This document shows positions 832-47,030 of a stretch of DNA of 64,000 nucleotides, piece by piece. Source of the stretch: a virus. Within the stretch, counting starts at the first letter, position 1. Each line of letters starts with the position of its first letter. The position numbers were made by a program, and so were the translations under genes. Location of the stretch: the IMG/VR virus record IMGVR_UViG_3300047554_000338, positions 7,150-71,149 of that record. The stretch is one strand, 5' to 3'. The notes beneath the pieces are model-generated. The model was not told the DNA's origin, made no database searches, and saw nothing but the letters and a program-made list of their open reading frames with translations.

Positions 832-1434
832 TCACGGTGCATTAGCGTCTCCTACGGGCTCCTGCCCTGCCGTGCCTGCCGCCGCCGGCGACCCTGCCGC
901 CGCTGGTACCGGATCAATAATCCGGTATGCCCCGCTCGAATCCCTTTGTAGATCAACAACTTGCGTGACTACGTCCGCAGGTTGTGCCACGGTTGTGCCA
1001 ATCTGACGCGTGCCAAGCCATGAAAGCTGCACCTGCACGCCGCCTTCGACGTTCGCGTTGATCTGTGTCGGCAGCACCTTGCTCACCAGGCCCACGAACG
1101 CGGCCCGATCGCTCGAGGTGCCCTCGGCCAGCTTGGCCAAGTACTGAGCGCCGCCGACCTGGTCGAACGCCTCGAGCACGGCCTCGCGCAGGTTGGTGAG
1201 CCGGTTCTTTGTGCCTGGTGCGCGCCCTGGGCCGGCCGGCACCGGCTGCCCGTTTTTCGGGCTCACCGCCGTCCCCTTGGGGCGCGGCTTGCCGTCCCTC
1301 GGATTCCAGGGCTTTTCCGGTCTTTGCGGCGTTTCTGACGCGCCAGGCGTTGAGTCAGCCTCAGCGGGCATCGCCGCCCTCAGCACAGCCTCTTGCAGCT
1401 GCTGACCGATGTCCTGTTGTTGGGTTTCAATCAT
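832..1434 (-). CDS. Probable terminase small subunit
   Basis: GRAPGTKNRLT..LREAVLEAF..VGG..YL motif; lies upstream of terL. Confidence 0.6.
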   Translation of the reverse strand: MIETQQQDIGQQLQEAVLRAAMPAEADSTPGASETPQRPEKPWNPRDGKPRPKGTAVSPKNGQPVPAGPGRAPGTKNRLTNLREAVLEAFDQVGGAQYLAKLAEGTSSDRAAFVGLVSKVLPTQINANVEGGVQVQLSWLGTRQIGTTVAQPADVVTQVVDLQRDSSGAYRIIDPVPAAAGSPAAAGTAGQEPVGDANAP

Positions 1435-9884: not shown

Positions 9885-10361
9885 ATGCAATACATCATCG
9901 GCGTCGATCCAGGCGCATCAGGAGCGATCGCCATCCTCGAGGACAACGGCAAGCTGGTGCACGTCTTTGACATGCCCAGCGTGGAGATCATCACAGGGGG
10001 CAAGGCCAAGCGCCGCGTAAGCCCTGAAATGCTGGCCGCTGAGCTGCGCCTCTACGCGGACCAGGGAGCGGTGGCCTACGTCGAGCAGGTGGGCGCCATG
10101 CCTGGCCAAGGGGTGAGCTCGATGTTCGCCTTTGGCCAAGCGTTTGGCATCGTCTTGGGCGTCATGGCTGGCTTGGCCATTCCCACCCAGACGGTGACGC
10201 CTGGCAAGTGGAAGAAGGACCTAAAGCTTAACGGTGGCAAGGACGCTTCACGGGCCAAAGCTGCCCAAGTATGGCCAGCGCAGGCAGGTGAGTTCAAGCG
10301 CGTGAAGGACGACGGCAAGGCCGAGGCTGGGCTGATTGCTTTGTGGGGTGTCGGCGTATGA
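9885..10361 (+). CDS. RuvC-like Holliday junction resolvase
   Basis: IIGVDPG..GA, YVEQV...PGQG..S.F.FG and DGKAEA motifs. Confidence 0.85.
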   Translation: MQYIIGVDPGASGAIAILEDNGKLVHVFDMPSVEIITGGKAKRRVSPEMLAAELRLYADQGAVAYVEQVGAMPGQGVSSMFAFGQAFGIVLGVMAGLAIPTQTVTPGKWKKDLKLNGGKDASRAKAAQVWPAQAGEFKRVKDDGKAEAGLIALWGVGV

Positions 10362-10945
10362 AAGTGCTTGTTGCCTGCGAATACTCAGGACGAGTGCGGG
10401 ATGCGTTCATTGCTCAAGGCCATGAGGCTATGAGCTGTGACTTGCTTCCCACTGACGCGCCTGGTCCTCACTATCAGGGCGACGTGTTTGACGTTGTCGA
10501 TTACCCGTGGGATTTGATGATCGCTCACCCGCCCTGCACCGATCTCGCGGTGTCGGGCGCCGCCTGGTTTGCCAACAAACGCCTTGTGGGCGCGCAACAA
10601 GCCAGTGCCTCGTTCTTCATGAAGCTGGGGAGGGTCAACATCCCTCGCATCGCGATCGAGAACCCTGTGTGCGTGATGTCGTCGCTATGGCGCAAACCTG
10701 ACCAAGTCATCCAGCCGTGGATGTTTGGCCACATGGAGCAAAAGGCCACCTGCCTTTGGCTGAAGGGGTTGCCTGCACTTACCCCCACCAACAACGTCAA
10801 GGAGGAAATGATGCAGTTGCCAAAGAATCAGCGTGAGCGCCTGCACTATCTCCCGCCCTCGGCCGACAGGTGGAAGTTGCGCAGTGAAACCTATCTGGGC
10901 ATCGCGGAAGCCATGGCCGCCCAGTGGGGTTCGCTTGTGCCATAA
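10358..10945 (+). CDS. Short C5 DNA methyltransferase-like protein
   Basis: VLVACEYSG, HPPCT (motif IV) and IENP (motif VI); copy 1 only. Confidence 0.7.
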   Translation: MKVLVACEYSGRVRDAFIAQGHEAMSCDLLPTDAPGPHYQGDVFDVVDYPWDLMIAHPPCTDLAVSGAAWFANKRLVGAQQASASFFMKLGRVNIPRIAIENPVCVMSSLWRKPDQVIQPWMFGHMEQKATCLWLKGLPALTPTNNVKEEMMQLPKNQRERLHYLPPSADRWKLRSETYLGIAEAMAAQWGSLVP

Positions 10946-10951
10946 ATATCT

Positions 10952-11004
10952 GTTGCGTTTTTCTTGACTAGTTGCCATAATTGCATCGCTGCGGTTTTCG
11001 CAGC
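10952..11004 (+). promoter_or_regulatory. Integrase promoter overlapped by three 17-bp operator-like sites
   Basis: TTGCGT(10953)-N17-CATAAT(10976); perfect GCTGCG-GTTTT-CGCAGC at 10988..11004. Confidence 0.6.
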
Positions 11005-11021
11005 GTTCAACGAGGACAACG

Positions 11022-11984
11022 ATGGCAACGAATCAAAAACCTGTACTGCGCGGCGACACCTACTGGATCAACGTCCAGATCGAGGGCAAGCGCCTGCGCA
11101 AGAGCCTGAACACGCAAGACGCCAAGCTGGCCGCTGAAGCGTTCACGCGTGAGCTGGCCGAGTTCTACCGCACGCGCAAGTTCAAGGAGATGCCCAAGAA
11201 GACCGTCAACGACGCGTTCGACAAGTGGCTGGACGAGCGCAGCGCCAAGCGCTCTATCGAGGACGACGAGCGCAAGGTCAAATTCCTCCGCGCCAAGATC
11301 GGCAGCACCCAGCTGTCGGAGCTCACCGTTTCCATGATCGAGGACGCCATGCCCCAGGGCGTGAGCCCGTCCACGCGTAACCGCTACCGCGCCCTGATCC
11401 GCGCCATCCTGCGCCGGGCCATGCGCAAGTGGCAGTGGCTCAACAGCGTGCCCGCGATCGAGGAAGAGGACGAGCCCGAGGGATACACCGAGCACCTGAC
11501 CAAGGACCAGGCCGAGCGCCTGATCGCGGAGCTGCCTGAGCGCTACCGCAAGCCCGTGCGCTTTGCCCTGCTGACCGGCCTTCGCCGCGCCAACGTGTTT
11601 GGCCTGACCTGGGACAAGGTCAACCTCGAGAGCGGCACGGTGGTGGTCGAGGCCAACACCGCCAAAGGCAAGCGCCGTTTCCTGGTCCCGCTGAACGCGA
11701 GCGCCAAGGCTTTGCTGGAGTCGGTGGAGGGGCGCGAGGGCCGCGTCTGGGGCGACGTGACCCACGTCTGGCAAAACGTCTGGGAGGACGCCTGCAAGCG
11801 GGCCGGCGTGAAGATCAAGTTCCACGGCCTGCGCCACACCTGGGCGACGTGGCATGCGGAAGCAGGCACGCCGCTTGACGTGCTTCAGAAGCTGGGCGCG
11901 TGGGCGACGCACTCGATGGTGCTTCGCTACGCTCACCGGCCGGCCGACTACCTCGCGCAGGCTGCTGAGGCGGTTGCCTTGTGA
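11022..11984 (+). CDS. int: Tyrosine integrase (paired with tRNA-Leu att)
   Basis: TGLRR, FHGLRHTWATW, LGAW and RY catalytic motifs; N-terminal arm-binding-like domain; adjacent tRNA 3' half. Confidence 0.95.
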   Translation: MATNQKPVLRGDTYWINVQIEGKRLRKSLNTQDAKLAAEAFTRELAEFYRTRKFKEMPKKTVNDAFDKWLDERSAKRSIEDDERKVKFLRAKIGSTQLSELTVSMIEDAMPQGVSPSTRNRYRALIRAILRRAMRKWQWLNSVPAIEEEDEPEGYTEHLTKDQAERLIAELPERYRKPVRFALLTGLRRANVFGLTWDKVNLESGTVVVEANTAKGKRRFLVPLNASAKALLESVEGREGRVWGDVTHVWQNVWEDACKRAGVKIKFHGLRHTWATWHAEAGTPLDVLQKLGAWATHSMVLRYAHRPADYLAQAAEAVAL

Positions 11985-12043
11985 CAGTGGCACATTTCTG
12001 TCACACCTGTATTCCGCTGTCATAGGCACTCATCGTAAGTGCC

Positions 12044-12099
12044 TGGTGCGAAAGGGGGGACTCGAACCCCCACGGGGGTAACCCGCCGGAACCTAAATC
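12044..12099 (-). tRNA. tRNA-Leu(TAG) 3' half (att core A; not a complete tRNA)
   Basis: GA-TTTAGGT-TCCGG-CGGGTTACCCCCG-T-GGGGG-TTCGAGT-CCCCC-CTTTCGC-ACCA; no D arm or 5' acceptor strand. Confidence 0.9.
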
Positions 12100-12219
12100 G
12101 AAAAAAGGAGGTAGCGAGTAGTTAAAAATCAATCACTTAAAACCGACGGGGGCCCGGTATTGGCCCCCGAATTGGCACAATTATGTCACAGCAACACAGT
12201 AACAAAGAAGGACAGTTTT

Positions 12220-12801
12220 ATGAGCAACACACAACCCGAAGCCCTCCGGCTGATCCAGCACATGGACGACGAATGGCCCGAGGACTGGGACGGCCTGGCA
12301 ATCCGCGCCGAACTGCGCCGCCTGCATACAGAAAATGAGTTCTTGAGGGGGCAGTCATTGGTCAAAGCCGGGCCGCCATACAAATTCCAGAGATTCGTTG
12401 CAGGGCAAAAGCGTGCCCAAGATGTTGTCATCGAGAAAGAGGAACAACTGCAACGCGCCGTCCTCAAGGCAGCAAGGATTTGTCCTCCTGCGGAATTGAC
12501 AGTGCTTGTCTACACCAGTCAACAGCCAGCCGAGCCTTACGATGAATTGACGCAGGCGCTAATCGAGCGCGATGAATACCACGCCATTGCTGACGAACTT
12601 GCCGAAAAGATTGTGGAAATCACGGGCGCAGACATTGGCGAACACAGCAGCGCAAATAACCCGTGGCTGAAGGCGTTGGAGGTTGCGGACGATTGGCTCA
12701 TGCGCCACAAAACGTTTGAGCCCGACTACTACGTCTACAACATTGACGGCGTGTATCGCTTGGCCGATCCGCAGCCAACCATCCGCTGGGGGAATAAATG
12801 A
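12220..12801 (+). CDS. Hypothetical mosaic phage protein (possible Ead/Ea22-like segment)
   Basis: AAGGA RBS; QPEALRL..AELRRLH..NE module and ERD...IGEHSSANNPW motif. Confidence 0.65.
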   Translation: MSNTQPEALRLIQHMDDEWPEDWDGLAIRAELRRLHTENEFLRGQSLVKAGPPYKFQRFVAGQKRAQDVVIEKEEQLQRAVLKAARICPPAELTVLVYTSQQPAEPYDELTQALIERDEYHAIADELAEKIVEITGADIGEHSSANNPWLKALEVADDWLMRHKTFEPDYYVYNIDGVYRLADPQPTIRWGNK

Positions 12802-13043
12802 AGCTAACCAAAACCCGCATCGGAAATTATCTGCGCCGCCACATGCTAGGCGACCAGCCGACATTTAGGAAAGGGTTCAAAGAAGGCGTTGCGTTTGCAC
12901 AAAACAGCCAGCCCTTAACTGAAGATCAAATATTTGATTTGGAGAACAACTTGCCTGACGACGCAGTATCAGACAGGCGTTGGACAATCGAATTGGCGCG
13001 TGCCGTCGAAAGAGCGCACGGCATCGGCGCCGGATCTTTGTGA
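12798..13043 (+). CDS. Hypothetical phage protein (PLTEDQI...RAVERAHGIG module)
   Basis: Start overlaps upstream stop; stop codon overlaps arm-type repeat TGACACA. Confidence 0.65.
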   Translation: MKLTKTRIGNYLRRHMLGDQPTFRKGFKEGVAFAQNSQPLTEDQIFDLENNLPDDAVSDRRWTIELARAVERAHGIGAGSL

Positions 13044-13097
13044 CACAAAAATGGCACACCCATCGGAGTTTCCGGGTGTGCCACAGTGGCAAGCTAT

Positions 13098-13153
13098 TGG
13101 TGCGAAAGGCGGGAGTCGAACCCGCACGGATTTTGTCCGCCGGAACCTAAATC
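13098..13153 (-). tRNA. tRNA-Leu(TAG) 3' half (att core B; not a complete tRNA)
   Basis: GA-TTTAGGT-TCCGG-CGGACAAAATCCG-T-GCGGG-TTCGACT-CCCGC-CTTTCGC-ACCA. Confidence 0.9.
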
Positions 13154-13172
13154 GCTTCGCGCCAGTTTTCCC

Positions 13173-13200
13173 AAAAAAAGGCCCTGAGCAATCAGGGCCT
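13173..13200 (-). terminator. Intrinsic terminator of the late/lysis operon
   Basis: AGGCCCTGA-TTGC-TCAGGGCC-T7 on minus strand; homolog at 46950..46976. Confidence 0.8.
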
Positions 13201-13256
13201 TAAGTCTCAATGGCATCTACAAACAGCTCTCGCTGTGGCACGATTGTGGCACAAAT

Positions 13257-13727
13257 TCAGGGGTTCAGGCAGACGTTCCGAGCGTACCCCTGCAAGCCTA
13301 CGACGATCGCTGCCAGGCGGTCAGCTTCTCCCGCCATTGCAACAAGAGTTGTCGCACAGCTTCCGAGTAGCTCCCGCTCGACGCCGGCTCGACCATCAGC
13401 TCTGAGGGTGGCGGCGGGATTTTTGGGACCTGGGGCGGCGATAGCGTAGAGCTCGTTGCGCAGCCCATCAAGCTCAGCGCGAGCGCGAGTGGCAGCACCA
13501 GCCGCCTGCCGTTTCTGAAGTACATATTGATCCTCCGCTTTCTGTCTTGCCGCGAGCAAGTCATGCTCCCGGCGCCTGGCCAGCTCCTCGGCCTTTTGCA
13601 GGCTCTGGGCGTAGGCCTGCTTCATCTGGGCCACCTTGGTGTCGTAGCGCCATTCCTGGACCTGCCACGCGCCCCAGAACGCCATCACAGCGGAGACGAG
13701 CGCGGCGGCGACGTGTGTGTAGACCAT
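13257..13727 (-). CDS. i-spanin (Rz-like)
   Basis: N-terminal TM helix then coiled coil, C-terminal GLQGY...VC; follows endolysin. Confidence 0.8.
   Translation of the reverse strand: MVYTHVAAALVSAVMAFWGAWQVQEWRYDTKVAQMKQAYAQSLQKAEELARRREHDLLAARQKAEDQYVLQKRQAAGAATRARAELDGLRNELYAIAAPGPKNPAATLRADGRAGVERELLGSCATTLVAMAGEADRLAAIVVGLQGYARNVCLNP
13298..13564 (-). CDS. o-spanin lipoprotein (Rz1-like), embedded in Rz
   Basis: Signal peptide with lipobox LMGC, Pro-rich PPPPSELM; nested in another frame. Confidence 0.75.
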   Translation of the reverse strand: MTCSRQDRKRRINMYFRNGRRLVLPLALALSLMGCATSSTLSPPQVPKIPPPPSELMVEPASSGSYSEAVRQLLLQWREKLTAWQRSS

Positions 13728-13728
13728 A

Positions 13729-14184
13729 TCAACCCCCTTGGCACTGCTGAAATTCGGCCTGGCGCCGTTTGGTGAGGCCGGCCAGGGGCTTTCCCTTGAA
13801 CTTGTCCCAGCGCAGGATCTCCTTGCACGCGCCCTCGTAATCCTCGGTGTTCAGCTTGCGTACCAAGGTCGAGCCGCAGAACGCGGCGGGGCCGATGTTG
13901 TAGGTGAGGGACGTGTAGGCGTCGTATTCCCACTGGTGCAGCGGGACCCTGACGCAGCGCTTAATCGCGCCCTCGTATTGCTGGATGTCTTGCAGTGCTC
14001 GTTGCAGAGCTTTGGGCGGGGTGATGCTGTCGCCCATCTTCACGTTCTCGGTGGTCCCAAAGCCGATTGTCGGCTTGTCGCCAGGCACTGGGATGATGGC
14101 CTTGCTGGTGTAGTCCTCATGCAGGGCAATGCCCACCAGCGCGACCGCGCTCAGGGTGAGGCCAGCCAGCTGCGTGCGGTTCAT
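13729..14184 (-). CDS. SAR endolysin (GH24 lysozyme)
   Basis: Weakly hydrophobic N-terminus, then E...D.PTIGFG.T triad; YNIG..AFC.STL and GL..RR..E. Confidence 0.88.
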   Translation of the reverse strand: MNRTQLAGLTLSAVALVGIALHEDYTSKAIIPVPGDKPTIGFGTTENVKMGDSITPPKALQRALQDIQQYEGAIKRCVRVPLHQWEYDAYTSLTYNIGPAAFCGSTLVRKLNTEDYEGACKEILRWDKFKGKPLAGLTKRRQAEFQQCQGG

Positions 14185-14429
14185 CAGTCGTCCCGCATGC
14201 GCCGCTCATGCTCGAGCTGTTGGCGCTGGTCTTCCTTGTGCCGGTAGTACCAGTTGATGGCAAAGCCGCCAACACCAAGAAGCAGACCAAAGATCACCCC
14301 GAACTCCGACGAGAGCATCCATCCCAAAACGCTTGCGCTTGCCCCCGTGTAGGTGGCTTTACTGCCAAAGGCGGCCAGTGTTGCGTCGACTGTGGCTTGT
14401 GTTTCCTGCTGCACGGGGCGCTCCTTCAT
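14184..14429 (-). CDS. Holin
   Basis: Small, two hydrophobic segments, charged tail (NWYYRHKED); directly upstream of endolysin. Confidence 0.7.
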   Translation of the reverse strand: MKERPVQQETQATVDATLAAFGSKATYTGASASVLGWMLSSEFGVIFGLLLGVGGFAINWYYRHKEDQRQQLEHERRMRDD

Positions 14430-14600
14430 TTAAGTCTCTTGCGCCGTAGCAGGCTCTTCTTCCTGATGCGGCAGTTGCTCTTTAGCCTGAGCGCGGATCT
14501 TGGCCGCAATGGGCCAGGTGTTGGTGCTAGTGGGCAGTTGCCCGATCGCATCAAGTACCGCGTTGACTTCGTTCAGCTCGAGTTGAATTGAAATTTCCAT
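14430..14600 (-). CDS. Small hypothetical protein
   Basis: MEISIQLELNEVNAVLDAIG.LP; conserved at 48971..49147. Confidence 0.6.
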   Translation of the reverse strand: MEISIQLELNEVNAVLDAIGQLPTSTNTWPIAAKIRAQAKEQLPHQEEEPATAQET

Positions 14601-14661
14601 TTGATTCTTTCGTGGGAGTCGTGGGTTGATGTGGTTGTTTTTATGTGTGGCGATTATCGCA

Positions 14662-15108
14662 TCAGGCAGTCGGTGCTTCTGGCCACTGAATGTCCCAAGG
14701 AAACCCCGTCTGCGAGCTGATGTCACGCAGTGCCTGGCGGTAGGTTGCCCAGGCTGCTTTGTCGCCTGGAGCGTCCGCGACCTGTGTCCAGTCGCAGTCA
14801 GCCAGGCGCGTGTTACGCGTAGACCTGACCGACGCGGCTTGGGTGGTGTCAAGCGCGGCCTTGGCCTGGTCATCGATGTCGCTCGCGCTGTACTTGGTAA
14901 ACCACTTGCCATCGATCTGCTCGACGCCATCGCGGAAGGCCACCTGGTAGCGCGTGGGCTGGGCCTGTGGGCCTTCGAACACGATGTCAGCGCCCATGTC
15001 GTTGATGAGCTGCTCGCTCAATTGCGCGGGGAATGACGTGTTGGGATGCAGAGCGCGGAACTCGCCCTCGTACATGACCGCGCCTGTTGCTCTGATTCTT
15101 ACTTGCAT
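14662..15108 (-). CDS. Tail fibre assembly chaperone
   Basis: VR..RN.RL..CDWTQ..DAP....W..YRQALRDI..Q.GFP..I.WP. Confidence 0.8.
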   Translation of the reverse strand: MQVRIRATGAVMYEGEFRALHPNTSFPAQLSEQLINDMGADIVFEGPQAQPTRYQVAFRDGVEQIDGKWFTKYSASDIDDQAKAALDTTQAASVRSTRNTRLADCDWTQVADAPGDKAAWATYRQALRDISSQTGFPWDIQWPEAPTA

Positions 15109-35927: not shown

Positions 35928-36545
35928 TCAGTCACCTTGCGGCTCTCCTGCGCCCTTGCCTGCCTCCGGCATGCTGCCGGCGACACCTGCCGGCGACTCC
36001 ACCGGATCTTTAATCCGGTACTTGCCTGCCGAATCCCGTTCTAAATCAACGACTTGCGTGACCTGCTCGGCCGGTTGTGCCACAGTTGTGCCAATGTTGC
36101 GCTGGCCAAGCCAGCTGAGCTGCACCTGGATGCCGCCCTCCACGTTGGCGTTGATCTGCGTCGGCAGCACCTTGGCCACCAGGCCGACGAACGCGGCCCG
36201 ATCGCTCGAGGTTCCTTGAGCGAGCCTGGCCAAGTAGGCCGGTCCTCCCACCTCGTCGAACGCCTCGAGCACGGCCTCGCGCAGGTTCGTCAGCCGGTTC
36301 TTGACGCCCGGCGTGCGGCCCGGCCCCGCCGGCACTGGCTGGCCGTTGCGCGGGCTCACCGCGCCCTGCTTCCCCTCTGTTTTTGGCTCTGTTTTGGCTT
36401 TTTGGGCATCCTGAGCCGCCGCTAACTTCTCCAGCCGCACGCGCTCCTCAGCCTCGTCCATGCGCTGCTGCATCTCCGCTGTGGCCATGACCTGGGCGAG
36501 ATCCGGGAACTTGAATTCAGGCATTTGTTGGGTGTTTGTTTCCAT
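35928..36545 (-). CDS. Probable terminase small subunit
   Basis: Core near-identical to 832..1434; N-terminus differs. Confidence 0.6.
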   Translation of the reverse strand: METNTQQMPEFKFPDLAQVMATAEMQQRMDEAEERVRLEKLAAAQDAQKAKTEPKTEGKQGAVSPRNGQPVPAGPGRTPGVKNRLTNLREAVLEAFDEVGGPAYLARLAQGTSSDRAAFVGLVAKVLPTQINANVEGGIQVQLSWLGQRNIGTTVAQPAEQVTQVVDLERDSAGKYRIKDPVESPAGVAGSMPEAGKGAGEPQGD

Positions 36546-36982
36546 GTTCAGATTTTCCCACCACTCACTCAACGACAAACGCGAACGCCATCAGCAGCAG
36601 CCCGATCATCCAGAACCCAAACGCGCACAGCGCTATGCCGGCAATGAAATACATGTGTGAAGCCATTCTTTCCTCCTGTGGATAACTGCACTGCTCCCAC
36701 TCCCACACCCTATCTAAGTGGAAGCAGAAGCAGCCTCGCGCACGGGCAAAGTGCCCCCACCCTTGGGGTGGTGGGGCACACTTTGCTCCTGGTGCTCCTG
36801 CTCTGCTCCCGCTACCGGAAGCGAACCGGAAGCAGTGGAAGCAGGCCCCAATCGAGCAGGACAATTCCTGCCCTGGTTGCAATTGCCATAACATGGTGGG
36901 CAGCTCTTTTTGCCAAAGATCCTGTCCCAGCTGTCCTGGTAGCCCTTGCCTGGACGTCGTCCAGATCCTTTGCCGCCATCGC

Positions 36983-37402
36983 TCATGACGCCCCCTTAAT
37001 GCCGTGTGCGGCTTCGATGGCCCGAACAAAGCTGCCAGTGTTATGTGTTGCGCGTATCAGTTCAGATATTTCCTCATCCGTCAGCGGCTTGCGCTGTGGT
37101 GGGGTTGTGTGAACAGTAAGAACGCCTGATTGTTTTGCCCCGCACTTGGTGCATTCAATGTCCATTGCGTATTGGTCAGGCTCATCCTTCGCTTCTAGTG
37201 CGGCTTTAATGGCGGTGATGGCTTGGTCAATTTCAGCATTGGCTTCATCAGCCCCACAGTTGCACTCGTCACCCTCAGAATCATTGGCGCATCCATCTTC
37301 ATGCTTAGGGCATGAGTACCATGTGTCCTCGCAGTAATGATGCGTTCTGCGGTTGTTTTCCAACGCCTCCAATGCAAGGCGTAATGCTTCGTCTTTGGTC
37401 AT
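36983..37402 (-). CDS. Hypothetical mosaic phage protein
   Basis: MTKDEALRLALEALE; Cys-rich inserts; PLTDEEI...RAIEAAHGI. Confidence 0.65.
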   Translation of the reverse strand: MTKDEALRLALEALENNRRTHHYCEDTWYSCPKHEDGCANDSEGDECNCGADEANAEIDQAITAIKAALEAKDEPDQYAMDIECTKCGAKQSGVLTVHTTPPQRKPLTDEEISELIRATHNTGSFVRAIEAAHGIKGAS

Positions 37403-45839: not shown

Positions 45840-46877
45840 ATGAGCAAACCTGTACTGCGCGGCAACACCTACTGGATCAACGTCACCATTGATGGCCAGC
45901 GACTTCGCAAGTCGCTTGGCACTCAAGACGAGAAGCTGGCCAAGGAGGCCTACACACGCGAGCTGGCCGACTTCTACCGCACGCGCAAGTTCAAGGAGAA
46001 GCCCAAGAAGACGCTCGACCAGGCGCTCGATCGCTGGGTTGTCGAGAAGGGCAGCAAAAAGTCCTTCCAGGACGACAAGGACAAGATCGCCTTCTTCCGC
46101 AAGGAGCTGGGCAAGAAGGTCAAGTGGCTGCATGAGATCACCGCCGGCATGGTCGAGGAGATCCTGCCCCAGGACGTCAAGCCGGCCACCAGGAACCGCT
46201 ACCGCGCCCTGATCCGCGGCGTGCTCAACCGCGCCAAGAACGTCTGGGAGTGGCTGGACGAGGCGCCCAAGTTCATCGAGGAGAACGAGCCGGCCCGTCG
46301 AGTCGCATTCCTGACACACCAGCAAGCAGCCGATTTGCTGGCGCTGTTACCGGAGAAATACCGGACGCCGGTCCGTTTAGCTTTGCTCACCGGGTTGAGA
46401 AGATCCAATGTCTTCAACTTGACCTGGGAGAACGTCAACCTGGAGCTCAATACCCTGATCATTCACGCGGACGAGCACAAGGGCGACGAGCGCCAGGTCG
46501 TGCCCTTGAACGCCCAAGCCTGGCAGCTGCTGGCCACGATGCCAGGAGAGCGCCTAGGACGCGTTTTCAAGGATGTGGGCGACCGTATATCCCCCAGCGT
46601 CTGGAAACGCGTCACAGCGCAGATTGGAGCGCCCTGGTGCCGTTTCCATGACCTTCGTCACACCTGGGCGACCTGGCATGCGATGGCCGGCACTCCGACC
46701 ACCGTGCTCCAGGAGCTGGGCGGCTGGGCGACCACCGAGATGGTGCGCAAGTACGCGCACATTCCGGGCGATCACCTGGCTGCAGCAGCCGAGCGTGTCG
46801 TGCTCCCTGACACAAATCTGGCACAGCCGGCGAATGACGCCGCTGGGCCAGACTTCAAGGGAGCTGTAAGTGCTTGA
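45840..46877 (+). CDS. int: Tyrosine integrase (paired with tRNA-Ser att)
   Basis: TGLRR, FHDLRHTWATW, LGGW and KY motifs; adjacent tRNA 3' half. Confidence 0.95.
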   Translation: MSKPVLRGNTYWINVTIDGQRLRKSLGTQDEKLAKEAYTRELADFYRTRKFKEKPKKTLDQALDRWVVEKGSKKSFQDDKDKIAFFRKELGKKVKWLHEITAGMVEEILPQDVKPATRNRYRALIRGVLNRAKNVWEWLDEAPKFIEENEPARRVAFLTHQQAADLLALLPEKYRTPVRLALLTGLRRSNVFNLTWENVNLELNTLIIHADEHKGDERQVVPLNAQAWQLLATMPGERLGRVFKDVGDRISPSVWKRVTAQIGAPWCRFHDLRHTWATWHAMAGTPTTVLQELGGWATTEMVRKYAHIPGDHLAAAAERVVLPDTNLAQPANDAAGPDFKGAVSA

Positions 46878-46879
46878 TT

Positions 46880-46940
46880 TGGCGGAAGGGGTGGGATTCG
46901 AACCCACGGTACGGTAGAACCGTACACCGGATTTCGAATC
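46880..46940 (-). tRNA. tRNA-Ser(CGA) 3' half (att core; not a complete tRNA)
   Basis: GA-TTCGAAA-TCCGG-T-GTACGGT-TCT-ACCGTAC-C-GTGGG-TTCGAAT-CCCAC-CCCTTCC-GCCA; long variable arm, G discriminator. Confidence 0.9.
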
Positions 46941-46949
46941 TGATCAGAC

Positions 46950-46976
46950 AAAAAAGAGCCCTGATTTACAGGGCTC
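46950..46976 (-). terminator. Intrinsic terminator of the late/lysis operon
   Basis: GAGCCCTG-TAAAT-CAGGGCTC-T6 on minus strand. Confidence 0.8.
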
Positions 46977-47030
46977 AAGGTCTCAATGGCAATCTGCGTG
47001 GCACATGTCCACGGCACAATTCTGGCACAG

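What the first reader, a model, noticed from the sequence alone, without database searches (positions are those of the whole stretch)
11988..13253. Integrase-less 1,054-bp cassette with its own att arms, nested in the phage att site
Seen: two 56-nt tRNA-Leu(TAG) 3' halves in direct orientation (12044, 13098), both truncated just 5' of the anticodon loop. Each has a pair of TG(G/A/T)CAC(A/G) direct repeats at 11-bp spacing on both sides (11988/11999, 12173/12184, 13041/13052, 13236/13247). An IHF consensus (AATCAATCACTTA) lies at 12127. Between the halves are only two coupled phage-type ORFs and no recombinase. Established: lambda-type tyrosine integrases use arm-type repeats plus IHF and often cross over in tRNA anticodon loops. 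Inference: recombination between the identical TTTAGGT cores would release a ~1.05-kb circle with a complete attP and its own tRNA-restoring half. That would be a minimal non-autonomous integrative cassette borrowing the phage Int, with the att site acting as an integron-like gene-capture point.
Basis: partly seen in the sequence, partly recalled or inferred. Interest (0 to 1): 0.88.

Follow-up and report, generated by a model that had tools for sequence, protein, structure and literature searches.

The report
Integrase-less gene segment between two phage attP sites
A temperate phage from freshwater carries two complete copies of its chromosome-docking site, and the 1-kb, two-gene piece between them looks like DNA captured by the phage's own integrase, which would be a precise way for phages to pick up and pass on extra genes.

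Summary
Downstream of the tyrosine integrase (11022-11984) lie two complete lambda-type attP sites in direct orientation. Each has a pair of TGGCACA-type repeats 11 bp apart, a 57-nt tRNA-Leu(TAG) 3' half, then a second repeat pair. They share an 18-nt core, 1,054 bp apart, and bracket two intact phage-type genes with no recombinase.

The two halves are different natural tRNA alleles, so this is not a simple duplication. Public contigs show three things:
- A 96-97% identical relative has one hybrid site (left arm of site 1, right arm of site 2) and no segment.
- In another study, the segment's left arm is joined at the same core to a third, different left arm.
- The double-site layout is covered piecewise by contigs of that other study, and end to end only by a contig from a run that may be the record's own source.

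My best reading is integrase-mediated att x att accretion, giving a CIME-like, cis-mobilised segment inside a phage genome.

Not shown: a free circle, excision within one population, the segment alone at a host tRNA, or more than one cassette. The "integron-like" claim is therefore unsupported. This scan has already noted many integrase-less tRNA-half cassettes in bacterial chromosomes. The new element here is the phage carrier. I class it as a new variant of a known kind.

The parts
11022..11984 (+). Tyrosine integrase of phage unit A (320 aa)
   Evidence: PF00589 E=1.9e-25 and phrog_1 integrase E=3e-58. It is 57% identical to the integrase of unit B, and the N-terminal ~60 aa are the best conserved part.
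11988..12005 (+). attP1 left (P) arm: TGGCACA and TGTCACA, 11 bp apart. An inverted copy lies at 11980-11986.
12044..12100 (-). tRNA-Leu(TAG) 3' half, allele 1. The shared 18-nt core is 12083-12100.
   Evidence: It is 96% identical to the tRNA-Leu(TAG) of two Burkholderiales-order genomes.
12127..12139 (+). IHF-consensus match in the right arm of attP1
   Evidence: 6 matches in the window against 0.8 expected.
12147..12169 (-). GC-rich hairpin, terminator-like on the minus strand, in the right arm of attP1
12173..12190 (+). attP1 right (P') arm: TGGCACA and TGTCACA, 11 bp apart
12220..12801 (+). orfA, 193 aa, phage-type gene of unknown function
   Evidence: Relatives with 54-62% identity occur in four IMG/VR contigs. 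In three of them a relative of orfB follows it. No Pfam hit; phrog_6628, function unknown.
12798..13043 (+). orfB, 81 aa, intact phage-type gene. Its stop codon is the first three bases of the arm repeat TGACACA.
   Evidence: 22 IMG/VR relatives. The relatives end 0-8 aa (one 20 aa) after the conserved part, so orfB is full length.
13041..13058 (+). attP2 left (P) arm: TGACACA and TGGCACA, 11 bp apart. An inverted copy lies at 13077-13083.
   Evidence: It resembles the integrase-proximal arm of unit B and of L029.
13098..13154 (-). tRNA-Leu(TAG) 3' half, allele 2. The shared 18-nt core is 13137-13154.
   Evidence: It differs from allele 1 by paired changes in the variable-arm and T stems. The best match in 802 genomes is 86%.
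13178..13201 (-). Terminator of the minus-strand lysis operon, inside the right arm of attP2
   Evidence: A homologous block is present in the right arms of unit B, L029 and L030.
13236..13253 (+). attP2 right (P') arm: TGGCACG and TGGCACA, 11 bp apart
13257..14184 (-). Rz-like spanin (13257-13727) and endolysin (13729-14184): phage late genes right of the att region
45840..47029 (+). Comparator: integrase of unit B and its single attP. It has the same arm repeats (46808/46819, 46999/47012/47023) but a tRNA-Ser(CGA)-like half (46881-46942).

Best explanation
Phage unit A carries two complete lambda-type attP sites in direct orientation. The 1,054-bp unit between their cores is an integrase-less, att-flanked segment. 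Most likely it was joined to the phage by integrase-mediated recombination at the anticodon-loop core.

One partner was the phage's own site, made of the left arm of site 1 and the right arm of site 2. The other was the site of a second element that uses the same integrase family and the same tRNA-Leu(TAG) target. That element was adapted to a host with a different tRNA-Leu allele, and its site was made of the left arm of site 2 and the right arm of site 1.

The result is the phage version of accretion of a cis-mobilisable element. The two genes now travel inside the phage genome. The phage integrase should be able to remove them again as a circle.

Shown: the anatomy, the different origin of the two halves, and natural variants whose break points lie in the core.
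Inferred: that the integrase made these joints, and that the segment can still move.
For: 1. Both sites have the full layout at matching distances. From left pair to core is 95 and 96 nt; from core to right pair is 90 and 99 nt. The paired motif is enriched: 8 matches against 0.77 expected.
2. The same arm motif flanks the single att site of the related unit B. L029 and L031 share that unit-B-type site; L030 uses a variant GGGCAC motif. The integrase N-terminus, which binds arm sites in lambda-type enzymes (recalled knowledge), is the most conserved part between units A and B.
3. The halves differ by paired, stem-preserving changes (G-C to A-U in the variable arm, G-C to C-G in the T stem). 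They keep identical acceptor and anticodon-stem strands. They are therefore two natural alleles, and either could restore the same host tRNA.
4. The right arm of site 2 is homologous to the right arms of relatives: a late-operon terminator plus the GTCTCAATGGCA block. The right arm of site 1 is not.
5. In run X7, a contig joins 12045-12082 (0 differences) to 13137-14252 (49 differences in 1,116 nt). It overlaps a contig covering the integrase up to 12074. That run has no depth over 12108-13045. This is a relative with the predicted hybrid site and no segment.
6. In runs X3 and X4, a contig joins a site-2-like left arm (13 differences and 2 gaps over 108 nt) at the core to 12083-12548, with 0 differences in X3. 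Sequence unlike this stretch lies further left. Because the core is only 18 nt, any 31-letter word across it must come from real reads (my inference about Logan's k-mer size, which is recalled).
7. The segment's GC content is 53.4%, against 58.2 +/- 3.7% for same-size windows and 64-66% for the flanking genes.
8. In bacterial genomes, this integrase family forms tRNA-bounded islands: 34 of 80 loci, 3.0-10.2 kb. Three of 80 have extra tRNA-fragment copies. In L096, five copies bound four segments, and only one segment has a detectable integrase.
Against: - No circle junction and no excision joint appear in the possible source run X1.
- The empty-site phage is a diverged strain (about 3-4%), so it shows presence/absence polymorphism, not excision.
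- Joints within an 18-nt identity could also arise by short-homology recombination.
- The sequence left of the third arm in X3/X4 is unknown, so that joint could be the native site of another phage rather than a moved segment.
- The segment was found nowhere else: IMG/VR, JGI metagenome contigs and 802 genomes.
- Integrase binding to the repeats is inferred from position and conservation only.
Confidence: 0.6

Rival explanations
1. The segment is an active, non-autonomous cassette that moves on its own as a circle by borrowing the phage integrase. The phage att site serves as an integron-like point that collects different cassettes.
For: - Both sites are complete, and the circle would carry a full attP with a tRNA-restoring half.
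- The segment is compact, with intact genes ending exactly at the arm.
- In X3/X4, the segment's left arm is joined to another left arm.
- One X4 contig (685 nt) matches only 12129-12230, with 7 differences and 3 gaps, and then continues into unlike sequence where orfA would be. This hints at the same arm type in front of other cargo.
- Earlier notes of this scan describe integrase-less tRNA-half cassette arrays in bacteria. These are unchecked leads.
Against: - Only one cassette is present.
- There is no contig with orfB upstream of the joint, so no circle or tandem copy.
- There is no copy at any host tRNA or in any other viral record.
- Integron features (IntI, attI, attC hairpins, Pc promoter) were not seen. 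The only recombinase found is a PF00589 phage-type integrase, and the recombination sites are arm-core-arm attP sites.
- The hint of other cargo rests on 102 nt of one low-depth contig.
Confidence: 0.15
2. The segment is an immobile remnant. A second phage or small island of the same integrase family once formed a cointegrate with phage A, or sat beside it at the tRNA and was picked up. It then lost its integrase and nearly everything else by deletion. The two sites are now only scars.
For: - The left arm of site 2 looks like the arm that follows the integrase gene in unit B and L029. An integrase probably once lay where orfB now ends.
- The family's bacterial islands have the order right arm, co-oriented genes, integrase, left arm, tRNA. 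This is the segment's layout minus the integrase.
- Relatives of orfA and orfB normally sit inside long arrays of small early genes in other phages.
- This is also how CIMEs are thought to arise.
Against: - Both sites keep all four repeat pairs at matching distances, plus an identical 18-nt core.
- orfB is full length and ends exactly at the arm. A random deletion would rarely give that.
- No integrase fragment is left.
- Decay and continued mobility in cis do not exclude each other.
Confidence: 0.2
3. The layout, or the variant joints, are not products of site-specific recombination. They are either an assembly artefact or the result of homologous or short-homology recombination between two tRNA-derived repeats.
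For: - The record itself looks like a join of two related ~35-kb phage genomes, so its assembly is not above suspicion.
- The joints fall in an 18-nt identity that any short-homology process could use.
Against: - An independent Logan assembly spans the whole region, although the run may be the source.
- Contigs of a second study cover both outer junctions.
- The longest exact identity between the sites is 18 nt. I judge this too short to mislead usual assemblers (inference).
- Complete, matching arm sets on both sides of both cores are not expected from a chance repeat.
Confidence: 0.05

Closest known systems
CIMEs (cis-mobilisable elements) and site-specific accretion, described for ICESt1/ICESt3 of Streptococcus thermophilus. 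I read passages of the review PMC5704250. The primary papers, Pavlovic 2004 and Bellanger 2011, I saw only as references there.
   Same: - A segment without integration genes is flanked by att sites that a neighbouring element's integrase recognises.
- It arises when elements with the same site specificity join in tandem.
- The composite travels as one unit, which amounts to gene capture.
   Different: - The carrier here is a tailed temperate phage, not an ICE or IME.
- The segment sits in the free phage genome between two attP-type sites (arm-core-arm), not in a chromosome between attL and attR.
- Transfer would be by packaging in the phage particle.
- The segment is only about 1 kb with two genes.
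- Mobility has not been tested.
[quoted passage not shown]
   Same: - A phage integrase acts on att sites of a composite formed by accretion.
- The phage and its partner move together.
   Different: - Those are chromosomal tandems of a full prophage with a full ICE, each with its own integrase, and they transfer by conjugation.
- Here the partner is a tiny integrase-less segment carried within the phage genome.
Tandem arrays with partial tRNAs at tRNA genes, for example the tycheposon islands of Prochlorococcus (bioRxiv 10.1101/2020.12.28.424599; passages read). Related: the integrase-less tRNA-half cassette arrays noted earlier in this scan (unchecked notes).
   Same: - Repeated tRNA 3' fragments mark successive integrations at one site.
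- Some units lack an integrase.
   Different: - Those arrays are chromosomal.
- Here a single unit lies in a viral record with no host DNA and no complete tRNA.
Int-promoted attP x attP recombination between lambda phages in mixed infection
   Same: It would provide the reaction needed both to fuse two attP-bearing molecules and to delete the DNA between two direct attP sites.
   Different: It was described for identical lambda sites in laboratory crosses. It was not described as a route that leaves a stable two-site phage with foreign cargo.
Integron gene cassettes
   Same: Small, promoter-poor, recombinase-less gene units are inserted at a dedicated site by an integrase encoded next to it.
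   Different: - There is no IntI-type integrase, attI site, attC hairpin or array.
- The sites here are lambda-type, with arm repeats and a tRNA half.

Membership tests
Lambda-type (arm-binding tyrosine integrase) attP site | A tyrosine recombinase gene lies next to the site. | tested here: met
   PF00589 E=1.9e-25 and phrog_1 E=3e-58. The gene ends 4 nt before the first repeat.
Lambda-type (arm-binding tyrosine integrase) attP site | Repeated arm-type sites lie on both sides of the core, distinct from the core sequence. | tested here: met
   Four 11-bp-spaced pairs flank the two cores. The pair motif gives 8 matches against 0.77 expected. The same motif occurs at the att site of unit B. L029 and L031 share that unit-B-type site; L030 has a variant GGGCAC motif.
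Lambda-type (arm-binding tyrosine integrase) attP site | The core is identical to the target, here the 3' part of a tRNA gene. | tested here: met
   Both halves are tRNA-Leu(TAG) 3' parts. Half 1 is 96% identical to tRNA-Leu(TAG) genes of two genomes. In 80 bacterial loci of the family, the integrase is mostly followed by a complete tRNA on the opposite strand.
Lambda-type (arm-binding tyrosine integrase) attP site | The integrase (and IHF) binds these sites and recombines them. | not testable with these tools
   Only a consensus IHF match at 12127 is available.
CIME (cis-mobilisable element), as defined in PMC5704250 | It lacks integration and transfer genes. | tested here: met
   orfA and orfB have no Pfam hit and no recombinase PHROG hit. 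The Atlas gives only hypothetical phage proteins.
CIME (cis-mobilisable element), as defined in PMC5704250 | It retains both att sites of the cognate integrase. | tested here: met
   Complete arm-core-arm sites lie on both sides. They are attP-type rather than attL/attR, because the carrier is not integrated.
CIME (cis-mobilisable element), as defined in PMC5704250 | It derives from decay of an ICE or IME and sits in a chromosome. | tested here: not met
   The carrier is a viral record without host DNA or a complete tRNA. The cargo genes are phage-type. Whether the segment decayed from a larger element is unknown.
CIME (cis-mobilisable element), as defined in PMC5704250 | It is excised and transferred together with the neighbouring element. 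| tested here: inconclusive
   It lies inside a phage genome, and its junctions are covered by contigs from two studies. Packaging and excision were not observed.
Integron cassette | An IntI integrase with attI, attC hairpin sites and an array under a Pc promoter. | tested here: not met
   The integrase is a phage-type PF00589 enzyme with arm sites. The sites carry tRNA halves. There is a single unit. No sigma-70-like promoter was found in 11800-13500.
Phage satellite (PICI or P4-like) | It has its own integrase, regulation, replication or capsid-redirecting genes and depends on a helper for packaging. | tested here: not met
   Only two small genes of unknown function are present, with no hit to a family of known function in Pfam or PHROGs.

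The most novel reading that the evidence does not exclude
Temperate phages are both vehicles and integrase donors for the integrase-less tRNA-half cassettes that are found stacked at tRNA genes in bacterial chromosomes. A cassette with a full attP enters the phage's own attP by Int-mediated attP x attP recombination and is packaged. It can then be dropped at the tRNA gene of the next host or passed to a co-infecting phage with a related integrase. On this reading the phage att site is a precise cassette-exchange point, and att-proximal 'morons' need not come from imprecise excision.
Probability: 0.2. Interest if true: 0.8.

Novelty: new variant of a known kind. Interest (0 to 1): 0.55.

Why it matters
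Accessory genes of temperate phages cluster next to the attachment site. The usual explanation (recalled) is imprecise excision. A phage with two complete attP sites around foreign genes, together with natural variants that differ exactly at the att core, points to a precise, integrase-driven route of gene capture and exchange. This route can be tested directly with a plasmid or lysogen assay.

It would also link two observations. Integrase-less att-flanked cassettes accumulate at tRNA genes in many bacteria, as earlier notes of this scan and the CIME literature report. A phage carrier would be one possible explanation for how they move between cells.

Tried and rejected
Assembly artefact: rejected. 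An independent Logan contig spans 10500-14500, and contigs of another study cover both outer junctions.

Simple tandem duplication of attP: rejected. The halves are different tRNA alleles, and the arms of the two sites are mostly unalignable.

orfB as a truncated gene fused at a deletion joint: rejected. Its relatives end at about the same place.

Searches that found nothing or nothing useful:
- Megablast of 10000-15000 against GenBank phages: no match.
- Exact scans of IMG/VR for core plus right arm of site 1, core plus right arm of site 2, and the 18-nt core alone: 0 hits each. The own record is left out by the tool.
- A 14-nt anticodon-region scan gave 117 stretches. In the 117 loci I scripted through, there was no BLAST match to either half, and 39 were complete phage tRNA-Leu(TAG) genes. 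This was not informative.
- A metagenome scan with orfA gave only 2 distant relatives.
- A DNA search of the att-segment region in 401 family-level and 401 order-level genomes gave only tRNA matches and no cargo.
- The 30-nt loose end left of the third arm was not found in IMG/VR or in the window, so that context stays unknown.
- The protein Atlas gave only hypothetical phage clusters for both cargo proteins.
- The integrase against cultured phages gave at best 33.6% identity, to Burkholderia phages.
- An exact look-up showed a 90%-cluster relative of the integrase on a 36,151-bp contig. I could not fetch it.

Read laying limits. Run X1 shows no skip or go-back joint, but the runs are contigs, which drop rare forms, so this says nothing about excision. 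Parts without cover in X3, X4 and X7 are only noted.

Supplementary files of papers were not consulted.
Full report
WHAT IS THERE

The window is bases 7150-71149 of a 71,149-bp IMG/VR virus record. The record consists of two collinear, related phage genomes of about 35 kb. Unit A and unit B are 68-98% identical where they align. ARAGORN finds no complete tRNA and there is no host DNA, so the att regions are in the free, attP state.

In unit A a rightward early operon ends with four genes: a Cas4-type exonuclease, a RuvC-like resolvase, a DNA methyltransferase and a tyrosine integrase at 11022-11984. To the right, on the other strand, lie an Rz-like spanin (13257-13727) and an endolysin (13729-14184).

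The 1.27 kb in between is the finding. The layout is:
- Left arm of site 1: repeat pair at 11988/11999.
- tRNA-Leu(TAG) 3' half, allele 1: 12044-12100, minus strand.
- IHF consensus match at 12127, then a GC-rich hairpin at 12147-12169.
- Right arm of site 1: repeat pair at 12173/12184.
- orfA, 12220-12801.
- orfB, 12798-13043.
- Left arm of site 2: repeat pair at 13041/13052.
- tRNA-Leu(TAG) 3' half, allele 2: 13098-13154.
- Terminator of the lysis operon, 13178-13201.
- Right arm of site 2: repeat pair at 13236/13247.

IS IT MORE THAN CHANCE?

The single heptamer TG(G/A/T)CAC(A/G) is not enriched in the window: 69 matches against 81.7 expected. The pair at 11-bp spacing is enriched: 8 matches against 0.77 expected, and none of 100 shuffles reached 8.
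- Four of the eight matches are the reported pairs.
- Two flank the att site of unit B.
- Two lie at homologous positions inside a gene of both units (983 and 36076).

The 18-nt block CCGCCGGAACCTAAATCG occurs exactly twice, 1,054 bp apart, against 0.04 expected.

Distances match between the sites. From left pair to core is 95 and 96 nt. From core to right pair is 90 and 99 nt.

The IHF consensus occurs 6 times against 0.8 expected. Two of the 6 lie in att arms, at 12127 and 46867.

THE ARM MOTIF BELONGS TO THIS INTEGRASE LINEAGE

Unit B has an integrase that is 57% identical to that of unit A. The first ~60 residues are the most conserved part. Its single att site has the same repeat pairs, but its core comes from a tRNA-Ser(CGA)-like 3' half.

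Three IMG/VR relatives have single sites with a near-identical tRNA-Ser half: L029, L030 and L031, at 52-57% integrase identity. L029 and L031 share the unit-B arm repeats. L030 has a variant GGGCAC motif.

In 80 bacterial loci with more distant family members (33-56% identity), the integrase is typically followed about 90 nt later by a complete tRNA on the opposite strand. This is what integration through such an attP predicts.

THE TWO SITES HAVE DIFFERENT ORIGINS

The halves are 84% identical. Their differences sit in self-contained hairpins and preserve pairing: G-C to A-U in the variable arm and G-C to C-G in the T stem. The acceptor strand and the anticodon-stem strand are identical. They are therefore two natural tRNA-Leu(TAG) alleles, and either could complete the same host 5' half.

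Allele 1 is 96% identical to the tRNA-Leu(TAG) of two Burkholderiales-order genomes. The best match for allele 2 in 802 genomes is 86%.

The right arm of site 2 is homologous to the right arms of unit B, L029 and L030. It has a late-operon terminator, the block GTCTCAATGGCA and a repeat pair. The right arm of site 1 shares only the repeat pair.

The left arm of site 2 (TGACACAAAAATGGCACA) resembles the integrase-proximal arm of unit B and L029. The left arm of site 1 differs.

So the phage's own site is the left arm of site 1 plus the right arm of site 2. The insert brings the right arm of site 1, the two genes and the left arm of site 2.

The insert's GC content is 53.4%. Same-size windows average 58.2 +/- 3.7%, placing the insert in the lowest 6%. 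The flanking genes are 64-66%.

THE CARGO

orfA (193 aa) and orfB (81 aa) overlap in ATGA. They have no Pfam family. orfA has only one PHROG hit, of unknown function. The Atlas gives only hypothetical phage clusters.

Relatives exist in other viral contigs: 4 for orfA and 22 for orfB. In three contigs (L004-L006) an orfA relative is followed by an orfB relative, inside arrays of small same-strand genes and with no arm repeats nearby.

orfB is full length. Its relatives end 0-8 residues after the conserved part, apart from one outlier at 20. Its stop codon is the TGA of the arm repeat TGACACA.

No recombinase is present.

NATURAL VARIANTS (Logan contigs of four runs, matches accepted from 90% identity)

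Run X1. This run may be the record's source. One 6,107-nt contig covers 10500-14500 with no difference, and there are no joints at the cores.

Run X7, a third study.
- An 842-nt contig covers 11233-12074 with 22 differences.
- It overlaps by 30 nt a 1,259-nt contig whose first 38 letters match 12045-12082 exactly.
- That second contig then continues at 13137-14252, with 49 differences.
- The run has no depth over 12108-13045.
- This is a 96-97% identical phage with a single hybrid site (left arm and allele 1 of site 1, right arm of site 2) and no segment.
- The tool warns that joints accepted under 95% likeness often come from other organisms. Here that is the point: it is a relative, so it shows polymorphism, not excision.

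Runs X3 and X4, a second study.
- One contig in each run carries, in order, 373-459 nt of sequence unlike this stretch, then a left arm and half resembling site 2 (13029-13136, with 13 differences and 2 gaps), then the core. It continues into the right arm of site 1: in X3 through orfA to 12548 (0 differences), in X4 only to 12158.
- The layout of the window is also present there. X3 has a contig covering 11744-12132, and X4 has one covering 12129-13886 with a single difference.
- In X4 the integrase of unit A has almost no cover. The phage carrying the segment and site 2 there seems to have the third left arm instead.

Four combinations of left and right arms therefore exist in nature, all switching inside the 18-nt core. 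Because the core is shorter than the assembler's word (31, recalled), the words bridging it come from reads.

What lies left of the third arm is unknown. Its last 30 letters read as an open frame ending in a stop right at the arm. They were found neither in the window nor in IMG/VR.

HOW IT MOST LIKELY WORKS

The anatomy and the variants fit conservative site-specific recombination at the anticodon-loop core between two attP-type sites of elements that share an integrase family and a target. This is the accretion mechanism described for ICEs and IMEs and their integrase-less derivatives, the CIMEs (passages of PMC5704250). It was recently extended to phage-ICE tandems (PMC13651849).

The same reaction within the phage would delete the segment as a circle. 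That circle would carry the left arm of site 2 and the right arm of site 1.

Int-promoted attP x attP exchange between co-infecting lambda phages is classical knowledge. I recall it and did not read it here.

The family is prone to tandem arrays in chromosomes:
- In 34 of 80 loci the integrase is bracketed by tRNA-fragment repeats, giving islands of 3.0-10.2 kb.
- In 3 of 80 loci there are extra copies.
- In L096, five copies bound four segments, and only one of them has a detectable integrase.

Such chromosomal remnants are a plausible source. A phage that integrates beside one and excises through the outer sites would carry it away between two attP sites.

WHAT IS NOT SHOWN

- No circle junction has been seen.
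- No deletion has been seen within one population.
- There is no copy of the segment elsewhere.
- There is no second cassette.
- Integrase binding has not been shown.

One 685-nt X4 contig matches only 12129-12230 (7 differences, 3 gaps) and then diverges where orfA would be. This is a weak hint of the same arm type before other cargo.

The remnant reading is that a second element lost its integrase. It is compatible with the best reading and is how CIMEs are thought to arise. What argues for maintained function is that all repeat pairs, the spacing and the core are intact, and that orfB ends exactly at the arm.

COMPARISON AND VERDICT

It works like a CIME captured by accretion. It is not a member in the strict sense, because the carrier is a free phage genome, the flanks are attP-type, and decay from an ICE or IME is not shown. 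It is not an integron cassette or a satellite.

This scan has already noted many integrase-less tRNA-half cassette arrays in bacterial chromosomes: 95 notes, unchecked by me. The cassette idea is therefore not new here. The phage as carrier and probable integrase donor is the new element.

I rate it a new variant of a known kind, with interest 0.55. The boldest reading not excluded is that phage attP sites are precise cassette-exchange points feeding those chromosomal arrays. I give that about 0.2.

Noticed in passing
window 1-64000 (record 1-71149): The record is two related ~35-kb phage genomes head to tail. Record 1-749 matches 36486-37234 at 98%, and the record's end matches position 36250. 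No host DNA is present and all att sites are intact. This could be a join made by the assembler through near-identical stretches, or a real heterodimer. A 90%-cluster relative of integrase A sits on a 36,151-bp contig, which fits a one-unit genome.
   Followed up: partly
window 983-1015 and 36076-36093, minus strand: The same 11-bp-spaced TGGCACA pair lies inside a conserved 200-aa gene of both units (832-1434, minus strand; phrog_11043, function unknown). In unit B an IHF consensus lies 20 nt away, at 36044. It may be chance in coding sequence, or a further binding site for the integrase N-domain or a packaging protein.
   Followed up: partly
window 45840-47029: Unit B's integrase shares the arm motif and the N-terminus with unit A, but its attP core is a tRNA-Ser(CGA)-like 3' half. 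This is an example of target switching within one arm-site lineage. L029-L031 carry a near-identical tRNA-Ser half.
   Followed up: partly
L040-L117 (bacterial loci, Betaproteobacteria MAGs and isolates): More distant members of the integrase family (33-41% identity) sit in very small tRNA-bounded islands of 3.0-4 kb or more. In 12 islands that I picked for inspection, the order was a 330-430-aa gene, a ~100-aa gene, the integrase, then the tRNA. Targets include Lys, Phe, Asn, Met, Leu(CAA), Arg and Pro tRNAs.
   Followed up: partly
L096 1263-17730: Five copies of a tRNA 3' fragment bound four segments of about 1.4, 8.3, 5.2 and 1.5 kb. Only one segment has a detectable integrase homologue. 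This is a chromosomal array of integrase-less segments for the same integrase family.
   Followed up: partly
window 12129-12230, run X4 contig of 685 nt: A diverged copy of the right arm of site 1 (7 differences, 3 gaps) continues into 584 nt unlike orfA. It may be the same arm type in front of other cargo.
   Followed up: no
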